Of a stretch of DNA of 11,010 nucleotides, positions 1,739-6,858 are shown piece by piece (within the stretch, counting starts at the first letter, position 1; every line of letters begins with the position of its first letter). Below the pieces are notes generated by a model. That model was not told the origin of the DNA, did not search any database, and saw only the letters and a program-made list of their open reading frames with translations. This DNA comes from a virus. Lineage: Duplodnaviria; Heunggongvirae; Uroviricota; Caudoviricetes. The stretch covers positions 1-11,010 of IMG/VR virus record IMGVR_UViG_2703718818_000014, one strand, 5' to 3'. Made by a program: the position numbers and the translations under genes.

Positions 1739-1945
1739 ATGGAAGCAATCAAAAAAGTCATCTTTCGCCAGGAAGTAAAAAAACTTATCCACATCAAGGC
1801 AGACAGCACGCTTCAAAGCATGATCAACGCCGGAGAATTTCCGCAGGGTTTTCGCGTTGGTTTACGCCGTCGCGGATGGTATGAGGAAGACGTAATCGCA
1901 TGGATGAAAGAACGTGAGCAGGAAGCACGCGGAACGGCTGCGTAA
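1739..1945 (+). CDS. alpA: AlpA / Vis-family prophage transcriptional regulator (excisionase-like HTH), 68 aa
   Basis: ATG with GAGG Shine-Dalgarno 10 nt upstream. The segment MINAGEFPQGFRVGLRRRGWYEEDVIAWM matches the AlpA family signature (AGxFP ... G.R...W...I..W). Confidence 0.85.
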   Translation: MEAIKKVIFRQEVKKLIHIKADSTLQSMINAGEFPQGFRVGLRRRGWYEEDVIAWMKEREQEARGTAA

Positions 1946-2095
1946 TGGTGTGAGGCATAACACGATGAACATAACAAAAAGCGCCCCGTTGCCGGAACGC
2001 CCTTGTGAACAATTAACCTGCTGCGCCTTATGTGTATGTGATCCCAAACATAAGCACGGGAATGATAGCCGCTATCAGGCTGGTGGGCAATGTAA

Positions 2096-2275
2096 TTACC
2101 CTTTGGGTTCTATGCCGCGTTGCTGTAATTCTTTGCGGATTATTCGCTTTATCCAGGCAGCAAGAGAATCATCGCCGTCATGTTGTTGTGCCTTTTCCAT
2201 CTTTTCCCGTAAGTCAGGATCTAAACGGAACTGGAACGGAGGATTACCACGCCTTTCGTTTTTGTGTGTTGACAC
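2096..2275 (-). CDS. Small ribbon-helix-helix (Arc/MetJ-like) DNA-binding protein, paralogue 1 (59 aa, GTG start)
   Basis: My minus-strand translation: MSTHKNERRGNPPFQFRLDPDLREKMEKAQQHDGDDSLAAWIKRIIRKELQQRGIEPKG. Beta-strand / helix A / helix B pattern typical of RHH repressors. Below the length cutoff of the supplied ORF track. Paralogous to the ORF at 2780..2971, sharing start context and the C-terminal RGIEPKG. Confidence 0.45.
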   Translation of the reverse strand: MSTHKNERRGNPPFQFRLDPDLREKMEKAQQHDGDDSLAAWIKRIIRKELQQRGIEPKG

Positions 2276-2343
2276 GTTAATTACACCCCATGTAATGTAT
2301 TTATGTGTAGTGACACATTACAGACAATCAACACAAAAAGCAA

Positions 2344-2374
2344 AGCCCGCTGGAGCTATGAACACCAACGGGCT
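2344..2374. other. Conserved stem-loop A (minus-strand intrinsic-terminator-like; alternatively part of a small regulatory RNA)
   Basis: AGCCCG-c-TGG / CCA-a-CGGGCT stem. On the minus strand the stem is followed by TTTGCTTTTTGTG. Flanks AAAAAGCAAAGCCC ... GGGCTTCTAACC are shared with stem-loop B at 3043-3075, with compensatory changes inside the stem. Confidence 0.4.
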
Positions 2375-2494
2375 TCTAACCAAACCATTAATTGAGGTAA
2401 CGATTATGGCTATAAAAGAGCATAGCTTACTCTTTATACACACACAAACGCCCCGGAAACGGAATAATCCGTTTCATAGTTCGGTTTTGTGCAC

Positions 2495-2722
2495 TCATCC
2501 TGGCGGTCGGTTTTTGCCGGATTTAAGCCGCCGTGGGTATTTATCGACAAAATCTTCAAGGGCAAATTTTTCTGGTGGCACTAAGCGCGGCGCTGGTGGT
2601 GGTATTTTTGTTCTGGTTAGTTCTTCCTCAAGTCTGGCGCAGGCTTCTGACTGCCTTTGCCGGATGATTTCATCATCTTGCGTTTGCGTGTCTTGTATTG
2701 GTGATAGTGTGTTGTTGGTCAT
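2495..2722 (-). CDS. Hypothetical protein (75 aa)
   Basis: ATG start with AGGG 9 nt upstream; hydrophilic non-repetitive sequence; lies downstream of RHH paralogue 2 on the same strand and upstream of the minus-strand terminator-like stem-loop A. No family recognised. Confidence 0.35.
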   Translation of the reverse strand: MTNNTLSPIQDTQTQDDEIIRQRQSEACARLEEELTRTKIPPPAPRLVPPEKFALEDFVDKYPRRLKSGKNRPPG

Positions 2723-2779
2723 GATACTGCCCTGTAAAGCAATGCGCCGGAGTACCTCACACCACGGCGCTGATAGTTT

Positions 2780-2971
2780 TTATCCTTTGGGTTCTATACC
2801 GCGCCGCTTTAGTTCAGTGCGCCCCAACTCTTTAAGCCAGTTGGCTAGGCTTATGCCGTCGCTCTGTGCTTCTTTATCGAATTGCTCTTTTAGCTCTGGA
2901 GAAATTCGCATTCTGAATTGTGGGGATTGCCCGTCCCCTTTAGGGCTTTTATCGCGTTTGATTGTTGACAA
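2780..2971 (-). CDS. Small ribbon-helix-helix (Arc/MetJ-like) DNA-binding protein, paralogue 2 (63 aa from TTG 2971; alternative ATG at 2911 gives 43 aa)
   Basis: Translation ...STIKRDKSPKGDGQSPQFRMRISPELKEQFDKEAQSDGISLANWLKELGRTELKRRGIEPKG, collinear with paralogue 1 including N-terminal (M)ST.K. AGGTGA lies 4 nt upstream of the TTG. Confidence 0.45.
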   Translation of the reverse strand: MSTIKRDKSPKGDGQSPQFRMRISPELKEQFDKEAQSDGISLANWLKELGRTELKRRGIEPKG

Positions 2972-2972
2972 G

Positions 2973-3013
2973 TGGTCACCTATTGAATTAGCCTTTCTAT
3001 TGTTAGGTGACCA
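2973..3013. promoter_or_regulatory. 10-bp inverted repeat, candidate operator (TGGTCACCTA ... TAGGTGACCA)
   Basis: Perfect 10-bp inverted repeat at 2973-2982 and 3004-3013 between the RHH paralogue 2 start and stem-loop B. The analogous position in module A has a different inverted repeat (TGTAATGT 2291-2298 / ACATTACA 2315-2322). Confidence 0.35.
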
Positions 3014-3042
3014 CCTTAACACAAGAGCACTTAAAAAAGCAA

Positions 3043-3075
3043 AGCCCCGCAAGTGTCATTACCACTCGCAGGGCT
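3043..3075. other. Conserved stem-loop B (paralogue of stem-loop A)
   Basis: AGCCC-c-GCAAGTG / CACTCGC-a-GGGCT. Same flanking sequence as stem-loop A; on the minus strand followed by TTTGCTTTTTT. Confidence 0.4.
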
Positions 3076-3105
3076 TCTAACCAACAACGTAAACTAGGAG
3101 CCGTT

Positions 3106-3663
3106 ATGGTTGCTGTAAATCATATACCACACCTTGTACACACACAAACGGCCTTTGTGTGGCGTTTTCTGGCCCTGAATATCGGAGAAAAAAACCAGTT
3201 GATCGCCAGTGTCGAAAATAGCTATGATTCCCGCGCACCTCATAAAACGGGTGCCGGGATTGGCGTCCTGGGCAAAACTGAAGCGCATAACACGCGCCCC
3301 GCGTGTTTTTTTGTGCCGCATAGTCACACCTTATCAATGGTGGGCTGTACGGGGGCGGAGCAATCCGCGCCGGTTTCTTCAGTGTCCGGTTACGCCAACC
3401 CTGTACAGTCCGCCACCAGCGAAATTGGCGTTTCCGGTGGCGGTTATCTTAACCACACTGAGGAGGCTGCCAACATGGCTACTATCCCTACCCTTGTACA
3501 TTCTCAAACCGCCTTTCTCTGGCGCTTTATCATCTTTGGCGCGTCAGAACATCAAATCATCCACGTAACCGCCTGGACGGAACGCGAAGCGCGTAACCGT
3601 TGCCCGTCAGGTTGTGTTGCTGTATTTGCCGCTCGTATTCGTCAGGGGTCACATCATGCGTAA
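3106..3663 (+). CDS. Tandem small-protein paralogue units B1 and B2 in one open frame (possible Icd-like proteins); B2 may initiate independently at 3475
   Basis: ATG 3106 with AGGAG 5 nt upstream. An internal ATG at 3475 has GAGGAGG 9 nt upstream and encodes MATIPTLVHSQTAFLWRFIIFGASEHQIIHVTAWTEREARNRCPSGCVAVFAARIRQG. B1 begins MVAVNHIPHLVHTQTAFVWRF..., and the frame stays open from 3106 to 3663 across an internal terminator-like hairpin. Family assignment is from memory of the motif only. Confidence 0.4.
   Translation: MVAVNHIPHLVHTQTAFVWRFLALNIGEKNQLIASVENSYDSRAPHKTGAGIGVLGKTEAHNTRPACFFVPHSHTLSMVGCTGAEQSAPVSSVSGYANPVQSATSEIGVSGGGYLNHTEEAANMATIPTLVHSQTAFLWRFIIFGASEHQIIHVTAWTEREARNRCPSGCVAVFAARIRQGSHHA
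3289..3312 (+). terminator. Intrinsic terminator / attenuator inside the B1-B2 leader
   Basis: Stem AACACGCG / CGCGTGTT with a short loop, followed by a T run (GTTTTTTTG). Confidence 0.5.
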
Positions 3664-3949
3664 AAACCGCTTGCAAAAAATTATCACGGGGCTGTATGCT
3701 TCCCCCGTCGCCCACATGGCGACCGGGTTTGACAGCCTGAATAAATTGGCGGACAGCCGCCCATATCCGATAAGCGGTTTTTTTGTGTCCGTAAACCTAC
3801 CCATACCCGCATTATGGCGGGGCGTAACGGGGGAGCCTTTGCGCTCGCTGGTTTCCCAATTTGCCAGTCTGTCAACCCTGTTACGTCTCGCCACCATGTT
3901 TGACAGCGTAGTAGCGAGACTCCTTAACATTAAATTGGGAGCCTTTCAC

Positions 3950-4123
3950 ATGGCTGTATCCGCACGCCCTTACTTTGTCTGGCGCTTTATGCAGTGCCAC
4001 CACAGCAACATTGATGTATTCACCGTTACCGCAGCCACTGAACGCGAAGCCCGCGCCCAGCTGCCGCACGCACATCTGATTCTTGTCGCCCGTATTCGTC
4101 AGGGGAAAACCTATGCACAATAA
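3950..4123 (+). CDS. Small-protein paralogue unit B3 (57 aa; possible Icd-like); frame is open upstream to ATG 3656
   Basis: ATG 3950 with GGGAG 8 nt upstream; MAVSARPYFVWRFMQCHHSNIDVFTVTAATEREARAQLPHAHLILVARIRQGKTYAQ shares F.WRF, TEREAR and ARIRQG with unit B2. The upstream in-frame extension (3656-3949) is homologous to the B1-B2 leader at nucleotide level but in a different reading frame, which argues it is non-coding. Confidence 0.45.
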   Translation: MAVSARPYFVWRFMQCHHSNIDVFTVTAATEREARAQLPHAHLILVARIRQGKTYAQ

Positions 4124-4373
4124 AACCACACCGGACGCAGCAGCCGCCGCGCTCACTACGCTGATGCATGCGCTGATTGATATTTCTGTTATTGCTGACA
4201 GGGCGCATAAGCACGCCACCAGTGAAACAGAATATGCTGGGGCTTTCGTTCCTCATTCGCTGGCGGTTATGCAACTTAGTGCGGATATGGCGCTGAATGA
4301 GGCCAAAGCCATCCTGATTGCTGATTGTGAAAATGGGGGGGGGTTATGCGTGATGATCGTTTTAATTCCCTGA
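4113..4373 (+). CDS. Hypothetical small protein (86 aa)
   Basis: First ATG of the frame, overlapping the stop of unit B3; first gene of a tightly packed run of small ORFs leading into the primase gene. Contains a G9 homopolymer near its 3' end. Confidence 0.4.
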   Translation: MHNKTTPDAAAAALTTLMHALIDISVIADRAHKHATSETEYAGAFVPHSLAVMQLSADMALNEAKAILIADCENGGGLCVMIVLIP

Positions 4374-4567
4374 AACAGGAATTTTCCGGCGTTCCTGATG
4401 ATGCGGTTGATGCGCTTTCGTTAATATCTGAAATTATGCGGGTGGCTTTTTTCTTTCTTTGCACTGATGAGCACAGAGATACAGGGCTAAATATTCTTGA
4501 TATTGCCGCTAACTATGCCGATTTCGTGACAGAAGCTGTTTTAAGAAAAACAACGGACGGGGATTAA
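4346..4567 (+). CDS. Hypothetical small protein (73 aa)
   Basis: ATG 4346 immediately after the G9 run, which doubles as its Shine-Dalgarno; overlaps the preceding ORF by 28 nt. Confidence 0.45.
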   Translation: MRDDRFNSLKQEFSGVPDDAVDALSLISEIMRVAFFFLCTDEHRDTGLNILDIAANYADFVTEAVLRKTTDGD

Positions 4568-4568
4568 T

Positions 4569-4802
4569 ATGCGTGATATTTATCTTGAAACAATAGACCG
4601 CGCATTTCTTGCACTTTCTCACAGTGAAAACATGCTGGAAATATTGCGCATATGGCTTGAAACACTTGGCGACAATGAACGCGACAAACAAAAATCAAGA
4701 ATTGCCACGGCATTAATAACGCTTCTTGAGCCTGTAATAATGGAACTGCAAGAAATAGATCTATTGCACGACAGATATAAAGAACAGCACACCGGAGAAT
4801 AA
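4569..4802 (+). CDS. Hypothetical small protein (77 aa)
   Basis: ATG 2 nt after the previous stop, preceded by GGACGGGGA; acidic helical-looking sequence. Confidence 0.5.
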   Translation: MRDIYLETIDRAFLALSHSENMLEILRIWLETLGDNERDKQKSRIATALITLLEPVIMELQEIDLLHDRYKEQHTGE

Positions 4803-4807
4803 AAATA

Positions 4808-5107
4808 ATGAAACTTAAATATTCTGGCTTAACTGCCAGTGGCAACACTCACCCTAAATTTACGCGCGGTGATATTTACCGCGACCAGTACGGCGGCACG
4901 GTAATGATTAAGGGCGTGGAAGAACGGCGTGTAACCTACCGCCGTGAAGGTTACGAATATGATTGCGTGATGCCTGTTTATCAGTTCCGGCGTGATTTTT
5001 CTCTGGTACAGACCGCGCCGCATAACGTGCCCACCAGCAACGCCAGGGCACGGGCAAACATCCAGAAGCTGAAAACCATGATTAACGGATTCAGGGGTAA
5101 AAAATGA
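4808..5107 (+). CDS. Hypothetical small protein (99 aa), translationally coupled to the primase gene
   Basis: ATG 4808 with GGAGA upstream; its stop overlaps the primase start in an ATGA arrangement. Resembles from memory small conserved proteins found beside primase genes in P4-like islands (unverified). Confidence 0.5.
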   Translation: MKLKYSGLTASGNTHPKFTRGDIYRDQYGGTVMIKGVEERRVTYRREGYEYDCVMPVYQFRRDFSLVQTAPHNVPTSNARARANIQKLKTMINGFRGKK

Positions 5108-6858
5108 AACTGGCACCGAACGTAAAACAGCAGTCACGCGGCATAAAACACAAAGGAACAGAAGTCATTATTTTTGCGGGTAGTGATGCCTGGGCACACG
5201 CGAAACAATGGCAGGAACATGATGCGCGTATGGCCGGAGATAATGAGCCTCCTGTGTGGCTTGGGGAGCAGCAGTTATCAGAGCTGGATAAGCTGCAAAT
5301 TGTGCCGGAAGGCAGAAAATCCGTGCGCATATTCAGGGCCGGATATCTTGCGCCAGTAATGATAAAGGCGATTGGCCAGAAGCTGGCGGCGGCAGGCGTA
5401 CAGGATGCAAATTTTTACCCTGATGGTATGCACGGTCAGAAGGTGGAGAACTGGCGCGAATATCTGGCCCGTGAGCGCCAGAATCTTTCTGATGGTCTGG
5501 TCATTGAGCTTCCGGTAAAGCAAAAGGCGCAACTTTCGCAGATGGCGGACAGTGAGCGCGCGCAGCTGCTTGCCGATCGCTTTGATGGCGTTTGCGTACA
5601 TCCTGAAAGTGAAATCGTTCACGTATGGCGCGGCGGGGTATGGTGTCCGGTCAGCACAATGGAGCTTAGCCGCGAAATGGTGGCGATCTATTCAGAGCAC
5701 AGGGCCACTTTCAGCAAGCGCGTAATCAATAACGCCGTGGAAGCGTTAAAAGTTATTGCCGAACCAATGGGCGAGCCGTCCGGCGATTTGCTGCCGTTCG
5801 CCAATGGTGCGCTTGACCTGAAAACGGGGGAATTTTCCCCGCACACGCCGGAGAACTGGATCACCACGCACAACGGCATTGAGTACACGCCACCAGCACC
5901 AGGGGAGAACATCCGCGATAACGCGCCAAACTTTCATAAATGGCTTGAGCACGCAGCCGGAAAAGACCCGCGCAAGATGATGCGTATATGTGCCGCGCTG
6001 TACATGATTATGGCGAACCGGTACGACTGGCAGATGTTTATTGAGGCCACCGGAGACGGCGGGAGCGGTAAAAGTACATTCACGCACATAGCCAGCCTTC
6101 TGGCAGGGAAACAGAACACGGTAAGCGCTGAAATGACGTCGCTTGATGATGCTGGTGGACGTGCGCAGGTTGTCGGGAGTCGTCTTATCGTCCTGGCTGA
6201 CCAGCCGAAATATACAGGCGAAGGAACGGGCATCAAGAAAATCACGGGCGGTGACCCCGTGGAAATTAACCCGAAATACGAAAAGCGTTTCACGGCTGTA
6301 ATCAGGGCGGTGGTGCTGGCGACCAACAATAACCCGATGATATTCACCGAACGGGCCGGAGGTGTGGCACGTCGTCGCGTGATTTTCCGTTTCGACAATA
6401 TCGTCAGTGAGGCCGAAAAAGACAGGGAGCTACCGGAAAAGATTGCGGCTGAAATCCCTGTCATTATCCGCCGATTGCTGGCGAACTTTACCGACCCTGA
6501 GAAGGCACGGGCTTTACTACTGGAACAGCGTGACGGTGATGAAGCACTGGCAATAAAGCAACAGACGGATCCGGTTATTGAGTTTTGCCAGTTCCTGAAT
6601 TTTCTGGAGGAAGCACGCGGCCTGATGATGGGCGGCGGTGGCGATTCAGTGAAGTACACGACCAGAAACAGCCTTTACCGCGTCTATCTGGCGTTTATGG
6701 CGTACGCAGGCAGGAGCAAACCGCTAAACGTAAATGACTTTGGCAAGGCTATGAAGCCAGCCGCGAAAGTTTACGGACATGAATATATTACGCGGAAAGT
6801 TAAAGGAGTAACGCAGACTAACGCAATAACAACAGACGATTGCGACGCGTTTTTATAA
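5104..6858 (+). CDS. Replication protein: P4-alpha-family primase/helicase C-terminal-type P-loop NTPase (SF3/D5-like), 584 aa
   Basis: Walker A GDGGSGKST, Walker B-like RLIVLADQP and SF3 motif C VVLATNNNP in the C-terminal half; sits directly upstream of an iteron array. Confidence 0.85.
   Translation: MKLAPNVKQQSRGIKHKGTEVIIFAGSDAWAHAKQWQEHDARMAGDNEPPVWLGEQQLSELDKLQIVPEGRKSVRIFRAGYLAPVMIKAIGQKLAAAGVQDANFYPDGMHGQKVENWREYLARERQNLSDGLVIELPVKQKAQLSQMADSERAQLLADRFDGVCVHPESEIVHVWRGGVWCPVSTMELSREMVAIYSEHRATFSKRVINNAVEALKVIAEPMGEPSGDLLPFANGALDLKTGEFSPHTPENWITTHNGIEYTPPAPGENIRDNAPNFHKWLEHAAGKDPRKMMRICAALYMIMANRYDWQMFIEATGDGGSGKSTFTHIASLLAGKQNTVSAEMTSLDDAGGRAQVVGSRLIVLADQPKYTGEGTGIKKITGGDPVEINPKYEKRFTAVIRAVVLATNNNPMIFTERAGGVARRRVIFRFDNIVSEAEKDRELPEKIAAEIPVIIRRLLANFTDPEKARALLLEQRDGDEALAIKQQTDPVIEFCQFLNFLEEARGLMMGGGGDSVKYTTRNSLYRVYLAFMAYAGRSKPLNVNDFGKAMKPAAKVYGHEYITRKVKGVTQTNAITTDDCDAFL

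What the first reader, a model, noticed from the sequence alone, without database searches (positions are those of the whole stretch)
2096..3110. Duplicated divergent regulatory modules with a structurally conserved stem-loop
Two modules, roughly 2096-2410 and 2780-3110, share the same architecture: a small ribbon-helix-helix gene on the minus strand with a non-ATG start and shared C-terminus RGIEPKG, then an inverted-repeat operator candidate, then a stem-loop with conserved flanks (AAAAAGCAAAGCCC ... GGGCTTCTAACC), then a Shine-Dalgarno and ATG of a plus-strand small ORF. The stem sequences differ between copies yet stay base-paired (GCTGG / CCAAC vs GCAAGTG / CACTCGC), a compensatory pattern that argues for a functional RNA structure. 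On the minus strand each stem is followed by a T-rich run, so it would act as an intrinsic terminator or as the 3' end of a cis-antisense RNA covering the start of the plus-strand ORF. Alternatively it belongs to a P1 C4 / P4 CI-type immunity RNA. The operator repeats differ (TGTAATGT / ACATTACA vs TGGTCACCTA / TAGGTGACCA), suggesting two switches with distinct specificity. In module A the plus-strand ORF appears degenerate.
Basis: partly seen in the sequence, partly recalled or inferred. Interest (0 to 1): 0.6.

Follow-up and report, generated by a model that had tools for sequence, protein, structure and literature searches.

The report
Repressor plus antisense-RNA switches in satellite
The two flagged stem-loops are the terminators of two copies of an undescribed ~78-nt antisense RNA gene, each paired with a small ribbon-helix-helix repressor, which together appear to keep the replication genes of a phage-satellite island switched off.

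Summary
The window is a capsid-encoding PICI-like satellite. It has two paralogous ribbon-helix-helix (RHH) genes on the minus strand (2096-2275, 2780-2971). Each faces a plus-strand promoter whose TTGACA -35 overlaps the RHH start codon and whose -10 sits inside a module-specific inverted repeat.

The stem-loops are RNA structures of the minus strand. In 63 distinct homologous hairpins the minus-strand fold is always the more stable, with 220 versus 19 G.U pairs. They are not C4/CI RNAs: Rfam places C4 at 3333-3420 and 3810-3898.

In 95 distinct homologues the only invariant columns upstream of the hairpin are T-A-n-n-n-T (a -10 hexamer) and an A eight bases later, while the overlapping codons vary. 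Between that A and the terminator lie the anti-start codon and a covarying hairpin carrying the anti-Shine-Dalgarno.

My reading is a conserved cis-antisense sRNA (about 3111->3033 and 2411->2335). It blocks translation of the first early ORF and adds to RHH repression and the downstream IsrK/C4 immunity. The module occurs across Enterobacterales and Orbales and matches no Rfam family. No transcript data were found, so expression is inferred.

The parts
2096..2275 (-). RHH-A: 59-aa ribbon-helix-helix repressor candidate with a GTG start
   Evidence: ORF. PHROG 228 Arc-like repressor, E 3.4e-6. NCBIfam YlcI_YnfO_N, E 0.003, below cut-off. AF2 model has pLDDT 79 with helices 20-33 and 38-53, and the top Foldseek hits are nearly all RHH proteins although E>1. 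112 homologue clusters, all unnamed.
2269..2298 (+). P_early-A: -35 TTGACA 2269-2274 (overlaps the RHH-A start codon), 18-nt spacer, -10 TAATGT 2293-2298
   Evidence: Read. A TTGACA overlapping the RHH start occurs in 112 of 121 unique homologous intergenic regions.
2291..2322 (.). Operator A: inverted repeat TGTAATGT (2291-2298) / ACATTACA (2315-2322). Each arm contains the -10 hexamer (TAATGT) of one of the two face-to-face promoters.
   Evidence: The GTAATGTGT-type repeat is found only with PPFQFRLD-type RHH proteins.
2315..2343 (-). P_RHH-A (inferred): -35 TTGCTT 2343->2338 inside the terminator U-tract, 17-nt spacer, -10 TAATGT 2320->2315
   Evidence: TTG-17/18-TAnnnT is present in 114 of 121 unique regions. 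TTG after the hairpin is at least 90% conserved.
2335..2411 (-). asRNA-A (inferred transcript, about 77 nt). +1 A at 2411, anti-start CAU 2408->2406, SL1 2402->2386 with loop CCUCAAU (anti-SD), terminator hairpin 2376->2342, U-tract to about 2335.
   Evidence: CM R1 hit 2328-2417 (-), 73.4 bits, E 1e-16, though this sequence was in the seed. Fold -29 kcal/mol. Invariant A40.
2419..2424 (-). -10 hexamer of asRNA-A promoter: TATGCT (2424->2419)
   Evidence: T1, A2 and T6 are invariant in 95 distinct sequences. TAnnnT sits at a fixed offset in 87 of 91 unique segments.
2406..3080 (+). ORF_A: degenerate Icd-like leader ORF (MAIKEHSLLFIHTQT...) that stays open for 224 codons antisense to ORF75 and RHH-B. 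It stops at the TAA of the conserved CTTCTAACC, 26 nt before ATG_B. It is the in-frame end of a stop-free frame 1908-3080 that overlaps the 3' end of alpA.
   Evidence: No Pfam match. The same arrangement is seen in all 6 double-module loci.
2495..2722 (-). ORF75: 75-aa hypothetical protein downstream of RHH-B
   Evidence: 17 homologue clusters, all from E. coli, 57-99% identical, no family.
2780..2971 (-). RHH-B: 63-aa ribbon-helix-helix repressor candidate with a TTG start. The SD AGGTG lies inside the operator arm.
   Evidence: 63 aa, TTG. PHROG 228, E 4.9e-7. Pfam HicB 20.4 bits, cut-off 21. PGAP names the S19-651 homologue 'YlcI/YnfO family protein'.
2965..2994 (+). P_early-B: -35 TTGACA 2965-2970 (overlaps the RHH-B start codon), 18-nt spacer, -10 TAGCCT 2989-2994
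2972..3014 (.). Operator B: perfect 11-nt inverted repeat GTGGTCACCTA / TAGGTGACCAC flanking the -10 of P_early-B
   Evidence: I25. This repeat type is found only with SPQFRMRI-type RHH proteins.
3013..3042 (-). P_RHH-B (inferred): -35 TTGCTT 3042->3037, 18-nt spacer, -10 TAAGGT 3018->3013
   Evidence: TAAGGT in 23 unique regions.
3033..3111 (-). asRNA-B (inferred transcript, about 79 nt). +1 A at 3111, anti-start CAU 3108->3106, SL1 3105->3086 with loop GCUCCUAGUUUA (anti-SD CUCCU 3100->3096), terminator hairpin 3077->3041 (15 pairs), U-tract to about 3033.
   Evidence: Terminator scan. Fold -28.5 kcal/mol. CM R1 hit 3027-3117 (-), 57.9 bits, with the sequence in the seed. An independent 98.5%-identical copy in strain ERL06-2497 also scores 57.9 bits.
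3119..3124 (-). -10 hexamer of asRNA-B promoter: TATGAT (3124->3119)
3106..3663 (+). First early ORF, the target of asRNA-B. It has an Icd-like N-terminus, then an 'Ash' region overlapping the isrK-like and C4 RNAs, then a full Icd-like domain whose own ATG is at 3475.
   Evidence: Pfam Phage_ASH, E 3.4e-17. NCBIfam phage_ICD_like, E 1.1e-16.
3235..3311 (+). isrK / P4 seqA-like RNA with terminator (context, outside the finding)
   Evidence: Rfam RF01394, 66 bits, gathering score 50.
3333..3420 (+). C4 / P4 CI-type immunity RNA, copy 1 (context, outside the finding)
   Evidence: Rfam RF01695, 77.6 bits, gathering score 45.
3810..3898 (+). C4 / CI-type immunity RNA, copy 2, preceded by the c4-a1b1 target motif at 3694-3743
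   Evidence: Rfam RF01695, 74 bits. RF03163, 46.8 bits, gathering score 46.7.

Best explanation
Each module is a compact lysogeny-type switch guarding the satellite's early (replication) operon. It has three interlocked parts.

1. A small RHH dimer binds a module-specific inverted repeat that brackets the -10 of a strong plus-strand promoter (consensus TTGACA -35). This represses the promoter. Because the distal arm also carries the -10 of the RHH gene's own weak, face-to-face promoter, the RHH also autoregulates.

2. Inside codons 3-7 of the first early ORF, a minus-strand promoter fires a 77-79-nt cis-antisense RNA. It runs from +1 A 3111 to about 3033 in module B and from 2411 to about 2335 in module A. 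The RNA carries the anti-start codon, a stem-loop presenting the anti-Shine-Dalgarno sequence, and a strong intrinsic terminator, which is the flagged stem-loop. It pairs with almost the whole 5' leader of any early transcript that escapes repression and blocks ribosome binding.

3. By analogy with P4 kil/eta and P1 c4-icd, loss of translation of the leader ORF leaves the transcript open to termination at the IsrK/C4 immunity cassette downstream. The primase, capsid and packaging genes therefore stay silent.

The terminator also stops antisense transcription from running into the RHH promoter, whose -35 (TTGnnn) is embedded in the U-tract. Convergent firing of the early and antisense promoters about 110 bp apart would make the switch bistable.

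The window carries two such modules of different specificity in series. Module A has lost its own Icd-like gene. Its promoter now points through ORF75 and RHH-B (antisense) into module B, so it probably acts as a second, separately repressed upstream promoter for the same operon.

Shown by computation: the sequence elements, the strand of the RNA structure, covariation, the promoter-like invariants, and operator/protein co-variation. Inferred: transcription of the asRNA, its effect on translation and termination, RHH binding, and the role of module A.
For: Strand and structure
- The hairpins fold at -29 and -28.5 kcal/mol on the minus strand and -14.3 and -16.3 on the plus strand.
- In RHH-anchored, hairpin-blind samples from IMG/VR, all 122 unique upstream regions carry a hairpin plus T-tract 63-75 nt before the RHH start.
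- The 63 unique hairpins average -22.6 versus -16.7 kcal/mol, with 220 versus 19 G.U pairs, and 63 of 63 are more stable on the RHH strand.
- On an unfitted MAFFT alignment of 41 sequences less than 80% identical, 92.6% of cells pair, against 32-49% when partners are slid. 17 of 24 pairs show changes on both sides. The covariation score is 0.362 against 0.190 shuffled (0 of 500).
- The same helices read on the plus strand pair in only 75.3% of cells, with 7 G.U cells against 176.

Antisense promoter
- In the 95-sequence alignment the only invariant columns are T27, A28, T32 (TAnnnT), A40 and A73.
- TAnnnT sits exactly 10 or 4 nt before the anti-start CAT in 87 of 91 unique segments, as 13 different hexamers.
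- The overlapping codons vary (QHT, KST, KCT, KFT, YDS, NDT, NSN, EHS, NHI).

Distribution
- A covariance model finds exactly two copies in the window, both on the minus strand.
- It finds one or two copies per locus in independent loci.
- The full module is present in about 38 of 43 species-level genomes of Enterobacterales and Orbales.

RHH and operators
- The two proteins are paralogues with Arc-like PHROG matches and an RHH-like predicted fold.
- TTGACA overlaps the start codon in 112 of 121 regions.
- TTG-17/18-TAAnGT is present in 114 of 121.
- At least 7 operator classes each go with their own beta-strand sequence.

Downstream immunity
- C4, isrK and c4-a1b1 all score above their gathering thresholds.
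- The P4 logic, in which translation of kil/eta prevents termination, is taken from PMC10111431.
Against: - No transcript, TSS or 3'-end data were found for any member. Rfam has no family. The EHEC Hfq-CRAC sRNA table shows no obvious entry, though I did not establish that strain Sakai carries the module.
- The antisense promoter has no conserved -35. It reads TTGTGT or TGTAAA at best, with a TGn extended -10 only in one subgroup, so its strength is unknown.
- The -10 invariants lie in coding sequence and all the loci are homologous. Descent plus an unknown constraint on the plus-strand mRNA cannot be fully excluded.
- The RHH assignment rests on sub-threshold or small-domain matches: Pfam HicB at 20.4 bits against a cut-off of 21, and Foldseek E>1.
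- The terminator U-tract is interrupted (UUUGCUUUUU), so some read-through into the RHH gene is possible.
- The link to Rho- or C4-dependent termination is by analogy only.
Confidence: 0.7

Rival explanations
1. Terminator only. The hairpins are minus-strand intrinsic terminators that insulate the RHH promoter. In module A the hairpin would end the RHH-B/ORF75 transcript. No dedicated antisense RNA is made from a promoter inside the first ORF.
For: The hairpin plus T-tract and its strand are secure. Module A's hairpin lies about 120 nt downstream of ORF75 on the same strand. The antisense promoter has no clear -35.
Against: It does not explain the invariant TAnnnT and the A eight bases later, at a fixed distance from the anti-start codon, while the codons vary. 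It does not explain the covarying, G.U-containing SL1 that carries the anti-SD between that site and the terminator. In single-module islands there is no minus-strand gene upstream to terminate.
Confidence: 0.12
2. Attenuated leader of the RHH mRNA. The promoter inside the first ORF is the real RHH promoter. The '~78-nt RNA' is the prematurely terminated leader, and RHH expression depends on read-through of the hairpin. This is compatible with the short RNA also acting as an antisense regulator.
For: The RHH gene lies directly downstream on the same strand, 63-75 nt after the hairpin. The U-tract is interrupted by GC, which may allow read-through.
Against: A separate TTG-17/18-TAAnGT promoter sits between the hairpin and the RHH gene in 114 of 121 regions. 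It keeps its register while the operator sequence changes. The hairpins are strong, averaging -22.6 kcal/mol.
Confidence: 0.12
3. Plus-strand leader element. The hairpin and the conserved CTTCTAACCAAC would act in the early mRNA, for example as a nut-like boxB/boxA antitermination site, a processing site or a translational operator.
For: It lies about 40 nt downstream of the predicted early TSS. GCUUCUAACCAA loosely resembles boxA (GCUCUUUAACAA; my own comparison, 8 of 12 positions). A second hairpin encloses the SD.
Against: The helices pair in 75.3% of cells on the plus strand against 92.6% on the minus, with 7 versus 176 G.U cells. All 63 hairpins are weaker on the plus strand. There is no U-tract on the plus strand.
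Confidence: 0.04
4. The stem-loops are part of a P1 C4 / P4 CI-type immunity RNA.
For: The island does use such RNAs, and the first ORF is Icd-like.
Against: A cmscan of the whole window at E<=1 places C4 at 3333-3420 and 3810-3898 and isrK at 3235-3311, all on the plus strand. Nothing from that clan is found at 2337-2381 or 3036-3082.
Confidence: 0.01

Closest known systems
Plasmid pMV158 copy control (CopG RHH repressor plus antisense RNA II) and plasmid R1 (CopB plus CopA RNA acting on the tap leader peptide). From my own knowledge of the literature.
   Same: A replication operon is under dual control. A small repressor acts at the promoter, and a short, terminator-ended countertranscript is complementary to the translation-initiation region of the first or leader ORF. 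In pMV158 the repressor is RHH.
   Different: Here the system sits in a chromosomally integrated phage satellite, not a plasmid. The repressor gene is divergent and face-to-face rather than the first gene of the operon. There is no detectable sequence relationship. The switch is stacked on an IsrK/C4 RNA immunity system.
Phage P22 immI (Mnt and Arc RHH repressors, overlapping Pant/Pmnt promoters, sar antisense RNA against the ant ribosome-binding site). From my own knowledge.
   Same: An RHH repressor with an operator in a pair of overlapping opposed promoters, plus a ~70-nt cis-antisense RNA that covers an RBS and ends at an intrinsic terminator. PHROG 228 'Arc-like repressor' is the best profile match.
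   Different: The target is an Icd-like/Ash leader ORF of a replication operon, not an antirepressor. The asRNA promoter lies inside the target ORF. Protein similarity is only at superfamily level. No DNA similarity to any of 50,697 phage records for module A, and only three weak matches (67.7% identity) for module B.
P4 immunity (CI RNA/seqA, kil nested in eta, PLE/PLL) and P1/P7 immI (C4 RNA, icd, ant)
   Same: The island carries C4 and isrK/seqA-like RNAs above their Rfam gathering scores and Icd-like ORFs. A stop-free frame starts next to the alpA (vis-like) gene and contains the leader ATG in frame, as kil lies within eta (P4 facts from PMC10111431).
   Different: The flagged hairpins are not C4/CI. 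I know of no report of an RHH repressor or a cis-antisense RNA at P4's early promoter. The phage collection holds no DNA similar to module A and only three weak matches to module B, so P4 would not share it, although I did not check that P4 is among the records.
YlcI/YnfO family (NCBIfam NF041551) and HicB-type RHH antitoxin domains
   Same: Weak profile matches, and PGAP names the RHH-B homologue 'YlcI/YnfO family protein'.
   Different: Scores are below the curated cut-offs (17.6 against 30, and 20.4 against 21). No toxin partner is evident. All 112 RHH-A homologue clusters are unnamed.

Membership tests
Rfam C4 antisense RNA (RF01695) / P4 CI clan CL00128, for the flagged stem-loops | Match to the covariance model at or near the gathering score at the locus | tested here: not met
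   A cmscan of the whole window at E<=1 finds C4 only at 3333-3420 (77.6 bits) and 3810-3898 (74 bits). There is nothing at 2337-2381 or 3036-3082.
Intrinsic (Rho-independent) terminator, minus strand | G+C-rich hairpin followed directly by a U-rich tract on the transcribed strand | tested here: met
   Module B has 15 pairs (8 G-C) followed by GCTTTTTTAA. Folds are -29 and -28.5 kcal/mol. All 122 unique homologous regions have a hairpin plus T-tract.
Intrinsic (Rho-independent) terminator, minus strand | Structure selected in RNA of that strand (G.U pairs allowed, C.A avoided) | tested here: met
   220 versus 19 G.U pairs, and 63 of 63 more stable on the RHH strand. 92.6% versus 75.3% of cells paired.
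Intrinsic (Rho-independent) terminator, minus strand | Transcripts end at the U-tract in vivo or in vitro | not testable with these tools
   No Term-seq or 3'-end data were available.
cis-encoded antisense (countertranscript) sRNA of the sar / RNA II / CopA kind | Own promoter on the strand opposite the target, close to the target's start | tested here: inconclusive
   The -10 TAnnnT and an A eight bases later are invariant in 95 sequences. The hexamer sits at a fixed offset in 87 of 91 segments. No conserved -35 was found, and there are no TSS data.
cis-encoded antisense (countertranscript) sRNA of the sar / RNA II / CopA kind | Stem-loop exposing sequence complementary to the target's SD/AUG, conserved by covariation | tested here: met
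   The SL1 helices (columns 24-29 with 39-45, and 17-20 with 51-54) are 87.7% and 98.8% paired, with compensatory CGUUA/UAACG <-> CAUUA/UAAUG <-> CGAUA/UAUCG changes. CCUC lies in or next to the loop.
cis-encoded antisense (countertranscript) sRNA of the sar / RNA II / CopA kind | A discrete small transcript is detectable and represses the target | not testable with these tools
   No expression data were found in the literature searches.
Ribbon-helix-helix (Arc/MetJ/CopG) DNA-binding proteins | Sequence-profile membership | tested here: inconclusive
   PHROG 228 Arc-like repressor at E 3.4e-6 and 4.9e-7. Pfam HicB at 20.4 bits against a cut-off of 21. NCBIfam YlcI_YnfO_N at 17.6 bits against 30. 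PDB profile search gives only weak NikR and 2kel matches.
Ribbon-helix-helix (Arc/MetJ/CopG) DNA-binding proteins | N-terminal strand followed by two helices, about 45 residues | tested here: inconclusive
   The AF2 model (pLDDT 79) has helices 20-33 and 38-53 after an extended N-terminal segment. The strand is not formed in the monomer model. Nearly all top Foldseek hits are RHH proteins (NikR, ParG, CopG, Arc, AmrZ, PutA; rmsd 0.7-1.4 A over about 35 residues), but E>1 because the domain is so small.
Ribbon-helix-helix (Arc/MetJ/CopG) DNA-binding proteins | Binds a palindromic or repeated operator at its own or a divergent promoter | not testable with these tools
   Indirect support only. 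Inverted repeats bracket the -10, and repeat sequence co-varies with the predicted beta-strand residues in at least 7 classes.
P4-type immunity region (CI/seqA RNAs; kil nested in eta; upstream late promoter) | CI (C4) and seqA (isrK) RNAs downstream of the early promoter | tested here: met
   RF01695 twice, RF01394 and RF03163, all above their gathering scores. They lie outside the finding's coordinates.
P4-type immunity region (CI/seqA RNAs; kil nested in eta; upstream late promoter) | Long ORF starting next to the vis/alpA gene that contains the first early ORF in frame, or delivers ribosomes to it | tested here: inconclusive
   The frame 1908-3080 is stop-free, with ATG 2406 in frame. The frame antisense to the RHH gene is open in 123 of 139 loci, and in 32 of 39 representatives against 18.2 expected from synonymous shuffles. 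95 of 121 loci end within 40 nt of, overlap, or read into the first ORF. There is no evidence of translation and no Pfam match.

The most novel reading that the evidence does not exclude
Gram-negative PICI / P4-like satellites carry a previously undescribed, widely conserved immunity layer: a family of specificity-diversified RHH repressors, each coupled to a dedicated cis-antisense sRNA. The repressor genes are embedded antisense in a deliberately stop-free 'eta-like' frame. Under this reading, transcription arriving from alpA or from an upstream module is translated straight through the repressor gene, operator and asRNA target. That strips off the asRNA, silences the repressor by interference, and delivers ribosomes to the first early ORF. 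The result is a translation-coupled override of three stacked repression systems (RHH, asRNA, IsrK/C4).
Probability: 0.3. Interest if true: 0.8.

Novelty: new variant of a known kind. Interest (0 to 1): 0.62.

Why it matters
How Gram-negative PICIs, capsid-forming PICIs and P4-like satellites stay silent and sense their helper is poorly understood. Published descriptions centre on AlpA and, for some elements, the IsrK/C4 RNAs (PMC10111431).

This work points to a concrete and testable master switch just upstream of those RNAs. It consists of a repressor family with at least seven operator specificities, which would set the immunity groups of satellites, and an unannotated sRNA gene that current pipelines miss. 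PGAP instead often calls a long 'hypothetical protein' on the opposite strand, or 'ash family' ORFs over the RNAs.

The same cassette also sits in front of a WYL-BREX defence locus on a plasmid. It may therefore be a portable regulatory module for satellite-borne defence cargo.

The covariance model and the coordinates given here make it straightforward to annotate the RNA, to look for it in existing RNA-seq data, and to design the mutational tests.

Tried and rejected
- C4/CI membership of the hairpins: rejected by cmscan.
- Plus-strand function (nut-like boxB/boxA, attenuator, 5' stabiliser): considered because of the position about 40 nt after the early TSS and a loose boxA resemblance. Rejected on strand asymmetry and the lack of a plus-strand U-tract.
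I used single proteins instead.
- The DNA pattern scan of viral contigs gave many chance matches, and only about 35 of 84 were real. It was used only as a first look because it fixes the flanks.
- RNAalifold on the MAFFT alignment recovered only part of the structure. I therefore specified the helices by hand and tested them with slid and shuffled controls.
- Searching the paper library for the sequences returned only unrelated primers.
- Esr41 and the EcOnc sRNAs of EHEC were checked as possible identities. Esr41 is in OI-43/SpLE1. EcOnc33 (~71 nt) lies downstream of Q in prophage Sp6. None corresponds, and I did not establish whether strain Sakai carries the module.
- A -35 for the antisense promoter was looked for and not found convincingly.
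- ORF75: no family in Pfam, NCBIfam or PHROGs, and only E. coli homologues. Its function is left open.

Full report
**Context**

The window is a phage satellite of the capsid-encoding PICI type. It carries a P4-type integrase (1-1242), an AlpA-like HTH (1739-1945), DUF4222, a D5_N/DUF5906 primase-helicase (5104-6858) and SSB. It also carries a lambda E-type major capsid protein, a head-decoration protein D and a Nu1 small terminase. A related E. coli island (S19-651, 90% identical over 85% of 1900-3500) sits at tRNA-Pro next to yejM and has the same two-module layout.

**Checking the observation**

- RHH-A is 2096-2275 (-), GTG start, 59 aa. RHH-B is 2780-2971 (-), TTG start, 63 aa. They are 51% identical and share RGIEPKG.
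- Each gene faces an intergenic region with an inverted repeat. Module A has TGTAATGT 2291-2298 / ACATTACA 2315-2322. Module B has a perfect 11-mer at 2972-2982 / 3004-3014.
- Then comes a stem-loop with the shared flanks AAAGCAAAGCCC...GGGCTTCTAACC (2337-2381 and 3036-3082), then an SD and ATG (2406 and 3106).
- The module-A ORF keeps only the first ~15 codons of the Icd-like leader.

**Which strand the stem-loop belongs to**

The two hairpins fold at -29.0 and -28.5 kcal/mol on the minus strand (z -5.4 and -4.3). On the plus strand they fold at only -14.3 and -16.3, because plus-strand C.A mismatches are minus-strand G.U pairs. On the minus strand each is followed by UUUGCUUUUU.

To test this without bias toward the hairpin, I fetched loci through the RHH proteins alone. 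That gave 157 IMG/VR loci and 43 species-level genomes.

- All 122 unique IMG/VR upstream regions have a hairpin plus T-tract 63-75 nt before the RHH start, on the RHH strand.
- The 63 distinct hairpins average -22.6 kcal/mol on that strand and -16.7 on the other. They contain 220 versus 19 G.U pairs. All 63 are more stable on the RHH strand.

The structure is therefore selected in minus-strand RNA and looks like an intrinsic terminator.

**Not a C4/CI RNA**

An Rfam scan of the whole window at E<=1 puts C4 at 3333-3420 (77.6 bits) and 3810-3898 (74 bits). It puts isrK (P4 seqA-like) at 3235-3311 and c4-a1b1 at 3694-3743, all on the plus strand and all outside the finding. Nothing from that clan lies at the flagged hairpins.

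**What ends at the terminator**

Single-module islands have no minus-strand gene upstream of the hairpin. What is conserved there is promoter-like.

- In a 95-sequence alignment the only invariant columns are T27, A28, T32, A40 and A73. The first three are T1, A2 and T6 of a -10 hexamer: 3124->3119 TATGAT in module B and 2424->2419 TATGCT in module A. A40 lies eight bases downstream (3111 and 2411), where a transcript would start.
- TAnnnT sits exactly 10 nt (or, in one leader type, 4 nt) before the complement of the start codon in 87 of 91 unique segments. It appears as 13 different hexamers, and other offsets are essentially empty.
- The plus-strand codons over the hexamer vary widely (QHT, KST, KCT, KFT, YDS, NDT, NSN, EHS, NHI). 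The constraint is therefore not on the protein.

Between the putative +1 and the terminator lie the anti-start CAU and a second hairpin, SL1. SL1 presents the anti-Shine-Dalgarno CCUC/CUCCU in or next to its loop, and its stem covaries (CGUUA/UAACG, CAUUA/UAAUG, CGAUA/UAUCG), again with G.U pairs only on this strand.

**Formal test of the structure**

I used a MAFFT alignment that was not fitted to the structure: 41 sequences less than 80% identical, 24 hand-specified pairs.

- 92.6% of cells pair, against 32-49% when partners are slid.
- 17 pairs have changes on both sides.
- The covariation score is 0.362 against 0.190 for shuffles (0 of 500).
- Read on the plus strand, the same helices pair in 75.3% of cells.

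A covariance model built from this alignment finds exactly two copies in the window, 2328-2417 and 3027-3117, both on the minus strand (both were in the seed). It finds one or two copies per locus elsewhere, including loci with unrelated neighbouring regulators.

I conclude that each module encodes a 77-79-nt cis-antisense RNA: asRNA-B about 3111->3033 and asRNA-A about 2411->2335. Transcription itself is inferred. I found no TSS, Term-seq or Northern evidence and no Rfam family. The promoter also lacks a convincing -35.

**The protein half of the switch**

- The RHH start codon overlaps a consensus TTGACA on the plus strand in 112 of 121 unique regions. This explains the invariant 'MST' N-terminus (xTG TCA ACA).
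- With an 17-18-nt spacer this gives plus-strand -10s (TAATGT 2293-2298 and TAGCCT 2989-2994) that lie within the inverted repeats.
- On the other strand, a nearly invariant TTG inside the terminator's U-tract is followed after 17-18 nt by TAAnGT in 114 of 121 regions. This fits a weak RHH promoter placed face-to-face with the early promoter, and it explains why a G is conserved in the middle of a U-tract.
- Operator sequence co-varies with the predicted DNA-reading beta-strand. PPFQFRLD goes with GTAATGTGT. SPQFRMRI goes with GTGGTCACCTA. PPFHMRI goes with GTGTACACCTA. APAFQVRI goes with GTGTGTACCTAT. SPTFQIRI goes with ACGTACGTA. Further classes exist.
- Hairpin type and leader type assort independently of RHH type, so the region is mosaic.
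- The RHH assignment itself is reasonable but not rigorous. PHROG 228 matches at E 3e-6 and 5e-7. Pfam and NCBIfam matches are sub-threshold. The AF2 model (pLDDT 79) has two helices after an extended N-terminus, and its best structural neighbours are nearly all RHH proteins, at non-significant E-values.

**How it most likely works**

RHH represses the early promoter and its own. The asRNA pairs with the leader of transcripts that escape, from about +30 to the fourth codon, and blocks initiation on the first early ORF (3106-3663; Icd-like N-terminus plus 'Ash' region).

In P4, translation of kil/eta is what prevents termination in the immunity region (PMC10111431). By analogy, an untranslated leader here would be terminated at the isrK-like terminator or the C4 system. 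The primase and morphogenetic genes would then stay off.

Convergent early and antisense promoters about 110 bp apart would sharpen the switch. The closest mechanistic precedents are pMV158 CopG/RNA II, R1 CopB/CopA-tap and P22 Mnt/Arc/sar (my own knowledge). There is no sequence relationship to them. The phage collection has no DNA match to module A and only three weak matches to module B.

**The two modules in series**

Module A keeps its repressor, both promoters and an intact asRNA gene, but has lost its Icd-like gene. Its leader ORF (ATG 2406) nevertheless stays open for 224 codons, antisense through ORF75 and RHH-B. It stops at the TAA of the conserved CTTCTAACC, 26 nt before ATG 3106.

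- All six double-module loci, with at least three different second regulators, behave the same way. The ORF ends 9-28 nt before the second ATG or reads into it in frame.
- The frame is open from 1908, overlapping the end of alpA.
- More generally, one frame antisense to the RHH gene is stop-free across the gene in 123 of 139 loci. This is more often than synonymous shuffles predict: 32 of 39 against 18.2.
- In 95 of 121 contexts the frame ends within 40 nt of, overlaps, or reads into the first early ORF.

This resembles P4's vis-eta-kil arrangement. It suggests a translation-coupled override from upstream promoters, but it is unproven, and I give it about 0.3.

**Distribution and novelty**

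The module is found in Shigella/Escherichia, Citrobacter, Klebsiella, Enterobacter, Serratia, Pantoea, Erwinia, Pectobacterium, Yersinia, Xenorhabdus and Providencia, and in the Orbales genera Gilliamella and Frischella. About 38 of 43 genomes have all the elements. The IG-B sequence matches 839 of 5,426 complete E. coli genomes, fully in 173 of them. All 112 RHH-A homologue clusters are unnamed.

I rate it a new variant of a known kind: countertranscript plus RHH dual control, here in satellites and stacked on IsrK/C4 immunity. Interest is moderate to high because it gives the field a testable master switch and an unannotated sRNA family.

Noticed in passing
window 1908-3080 (+); L086-L242: A single stop-free frame runs from the 3' end of alpA through the antisense of RHH-A, ORF75 and RHH-B and all three intergenic regions. 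ATG 2406 is in frame, and the frame stops 26 nt before ATG 3106. The equivalent frame is open in 123 of 139 homologous loci, and in 32 of 39 representatives against 18.2 expected from synonymous shuffles. This resembles P4 eta/kil.
   Followed up: partly
window 3106-4123 (+): The immunity region is itself repeated. There are three Icd-like ORF starts (ATG 3106, ATG 3475, and a third domain ending at 4123). Two isrK/c4-a1b1-like elements (3235-3311 and 3694-3784) and two C4 RNAs (3333-3420 and 3810-3898) are interleaved with them, so two complete IsrK-C4-Icd cassettes stand in tandem.
   Followed up: partly
window 3446-3473 (-): A promoter-like site (TTGGCA-16-TAAGAT) lies just downstream of the Icd-like ATG at 3475 and points antisense into C4 copy 1. 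It could make an anti-C4 transcript.
   Followed up: no
L243 (E. coli plasmid pECO-6dfa) 3321-3720: The same RHH / operator / asRNA / Icd-like-leader cassette (CM hit 87.3 bits) sits directly upstream of a WYL-domain gene and a BREX system on a 97.8-kb plasmid. The cassette also appears to control defence cargo.
   Followed up: partly
L287 (E. coli ERL06-2497) 4369-5112; L001 7180-7593: PGAP annotates the long plus-strand frame as a 247-aa hypothetical protein (WP_001304194.1) and omits the RHH gene on the other strand. 'Ash family protein' ORFs are called over the isrK/C4 RNAs. These are likely systematic annotation artefacts in this region.
   Followed up: partly
L015 2779-3160: In a sister island the second module has an unrelated 59-aa CopG-like regulator and different repeats (CTGGAATCCAG). 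It keeps the asRNA (CM 47.6 bits) with a different terminator stem and a weaker U-tract. The asRNA therefore pairs with more than one repressor family.
   Followed up: partly
window 2448-2470 (-): A small hairpin (GAAACGG-ATTATT-CCGTTTC) followed by a T/G-rich run lies just after ORF75 on the minus strand. It may be ORF75's own terminator, which would make asRNA-A independent of the RHH-B/ORF75 transcript.
   Followed up: no
L267, L276 (Citrobacter): Two RHH genes of this family stand in tandem on the same strand. The upstream copy replaces the asRNA region, giving a different arrangement of the module.
   Followed up: no
window 2495-2722 (-): ORF75 is a small protein found only in E. coli (17 clusters, 57-99% identity) with no family assignment. 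It travels with module A rather than with the variable second regulator: homology between the window and L015 ends exactly at the second regulator's stop codon.
   Followed up: partly
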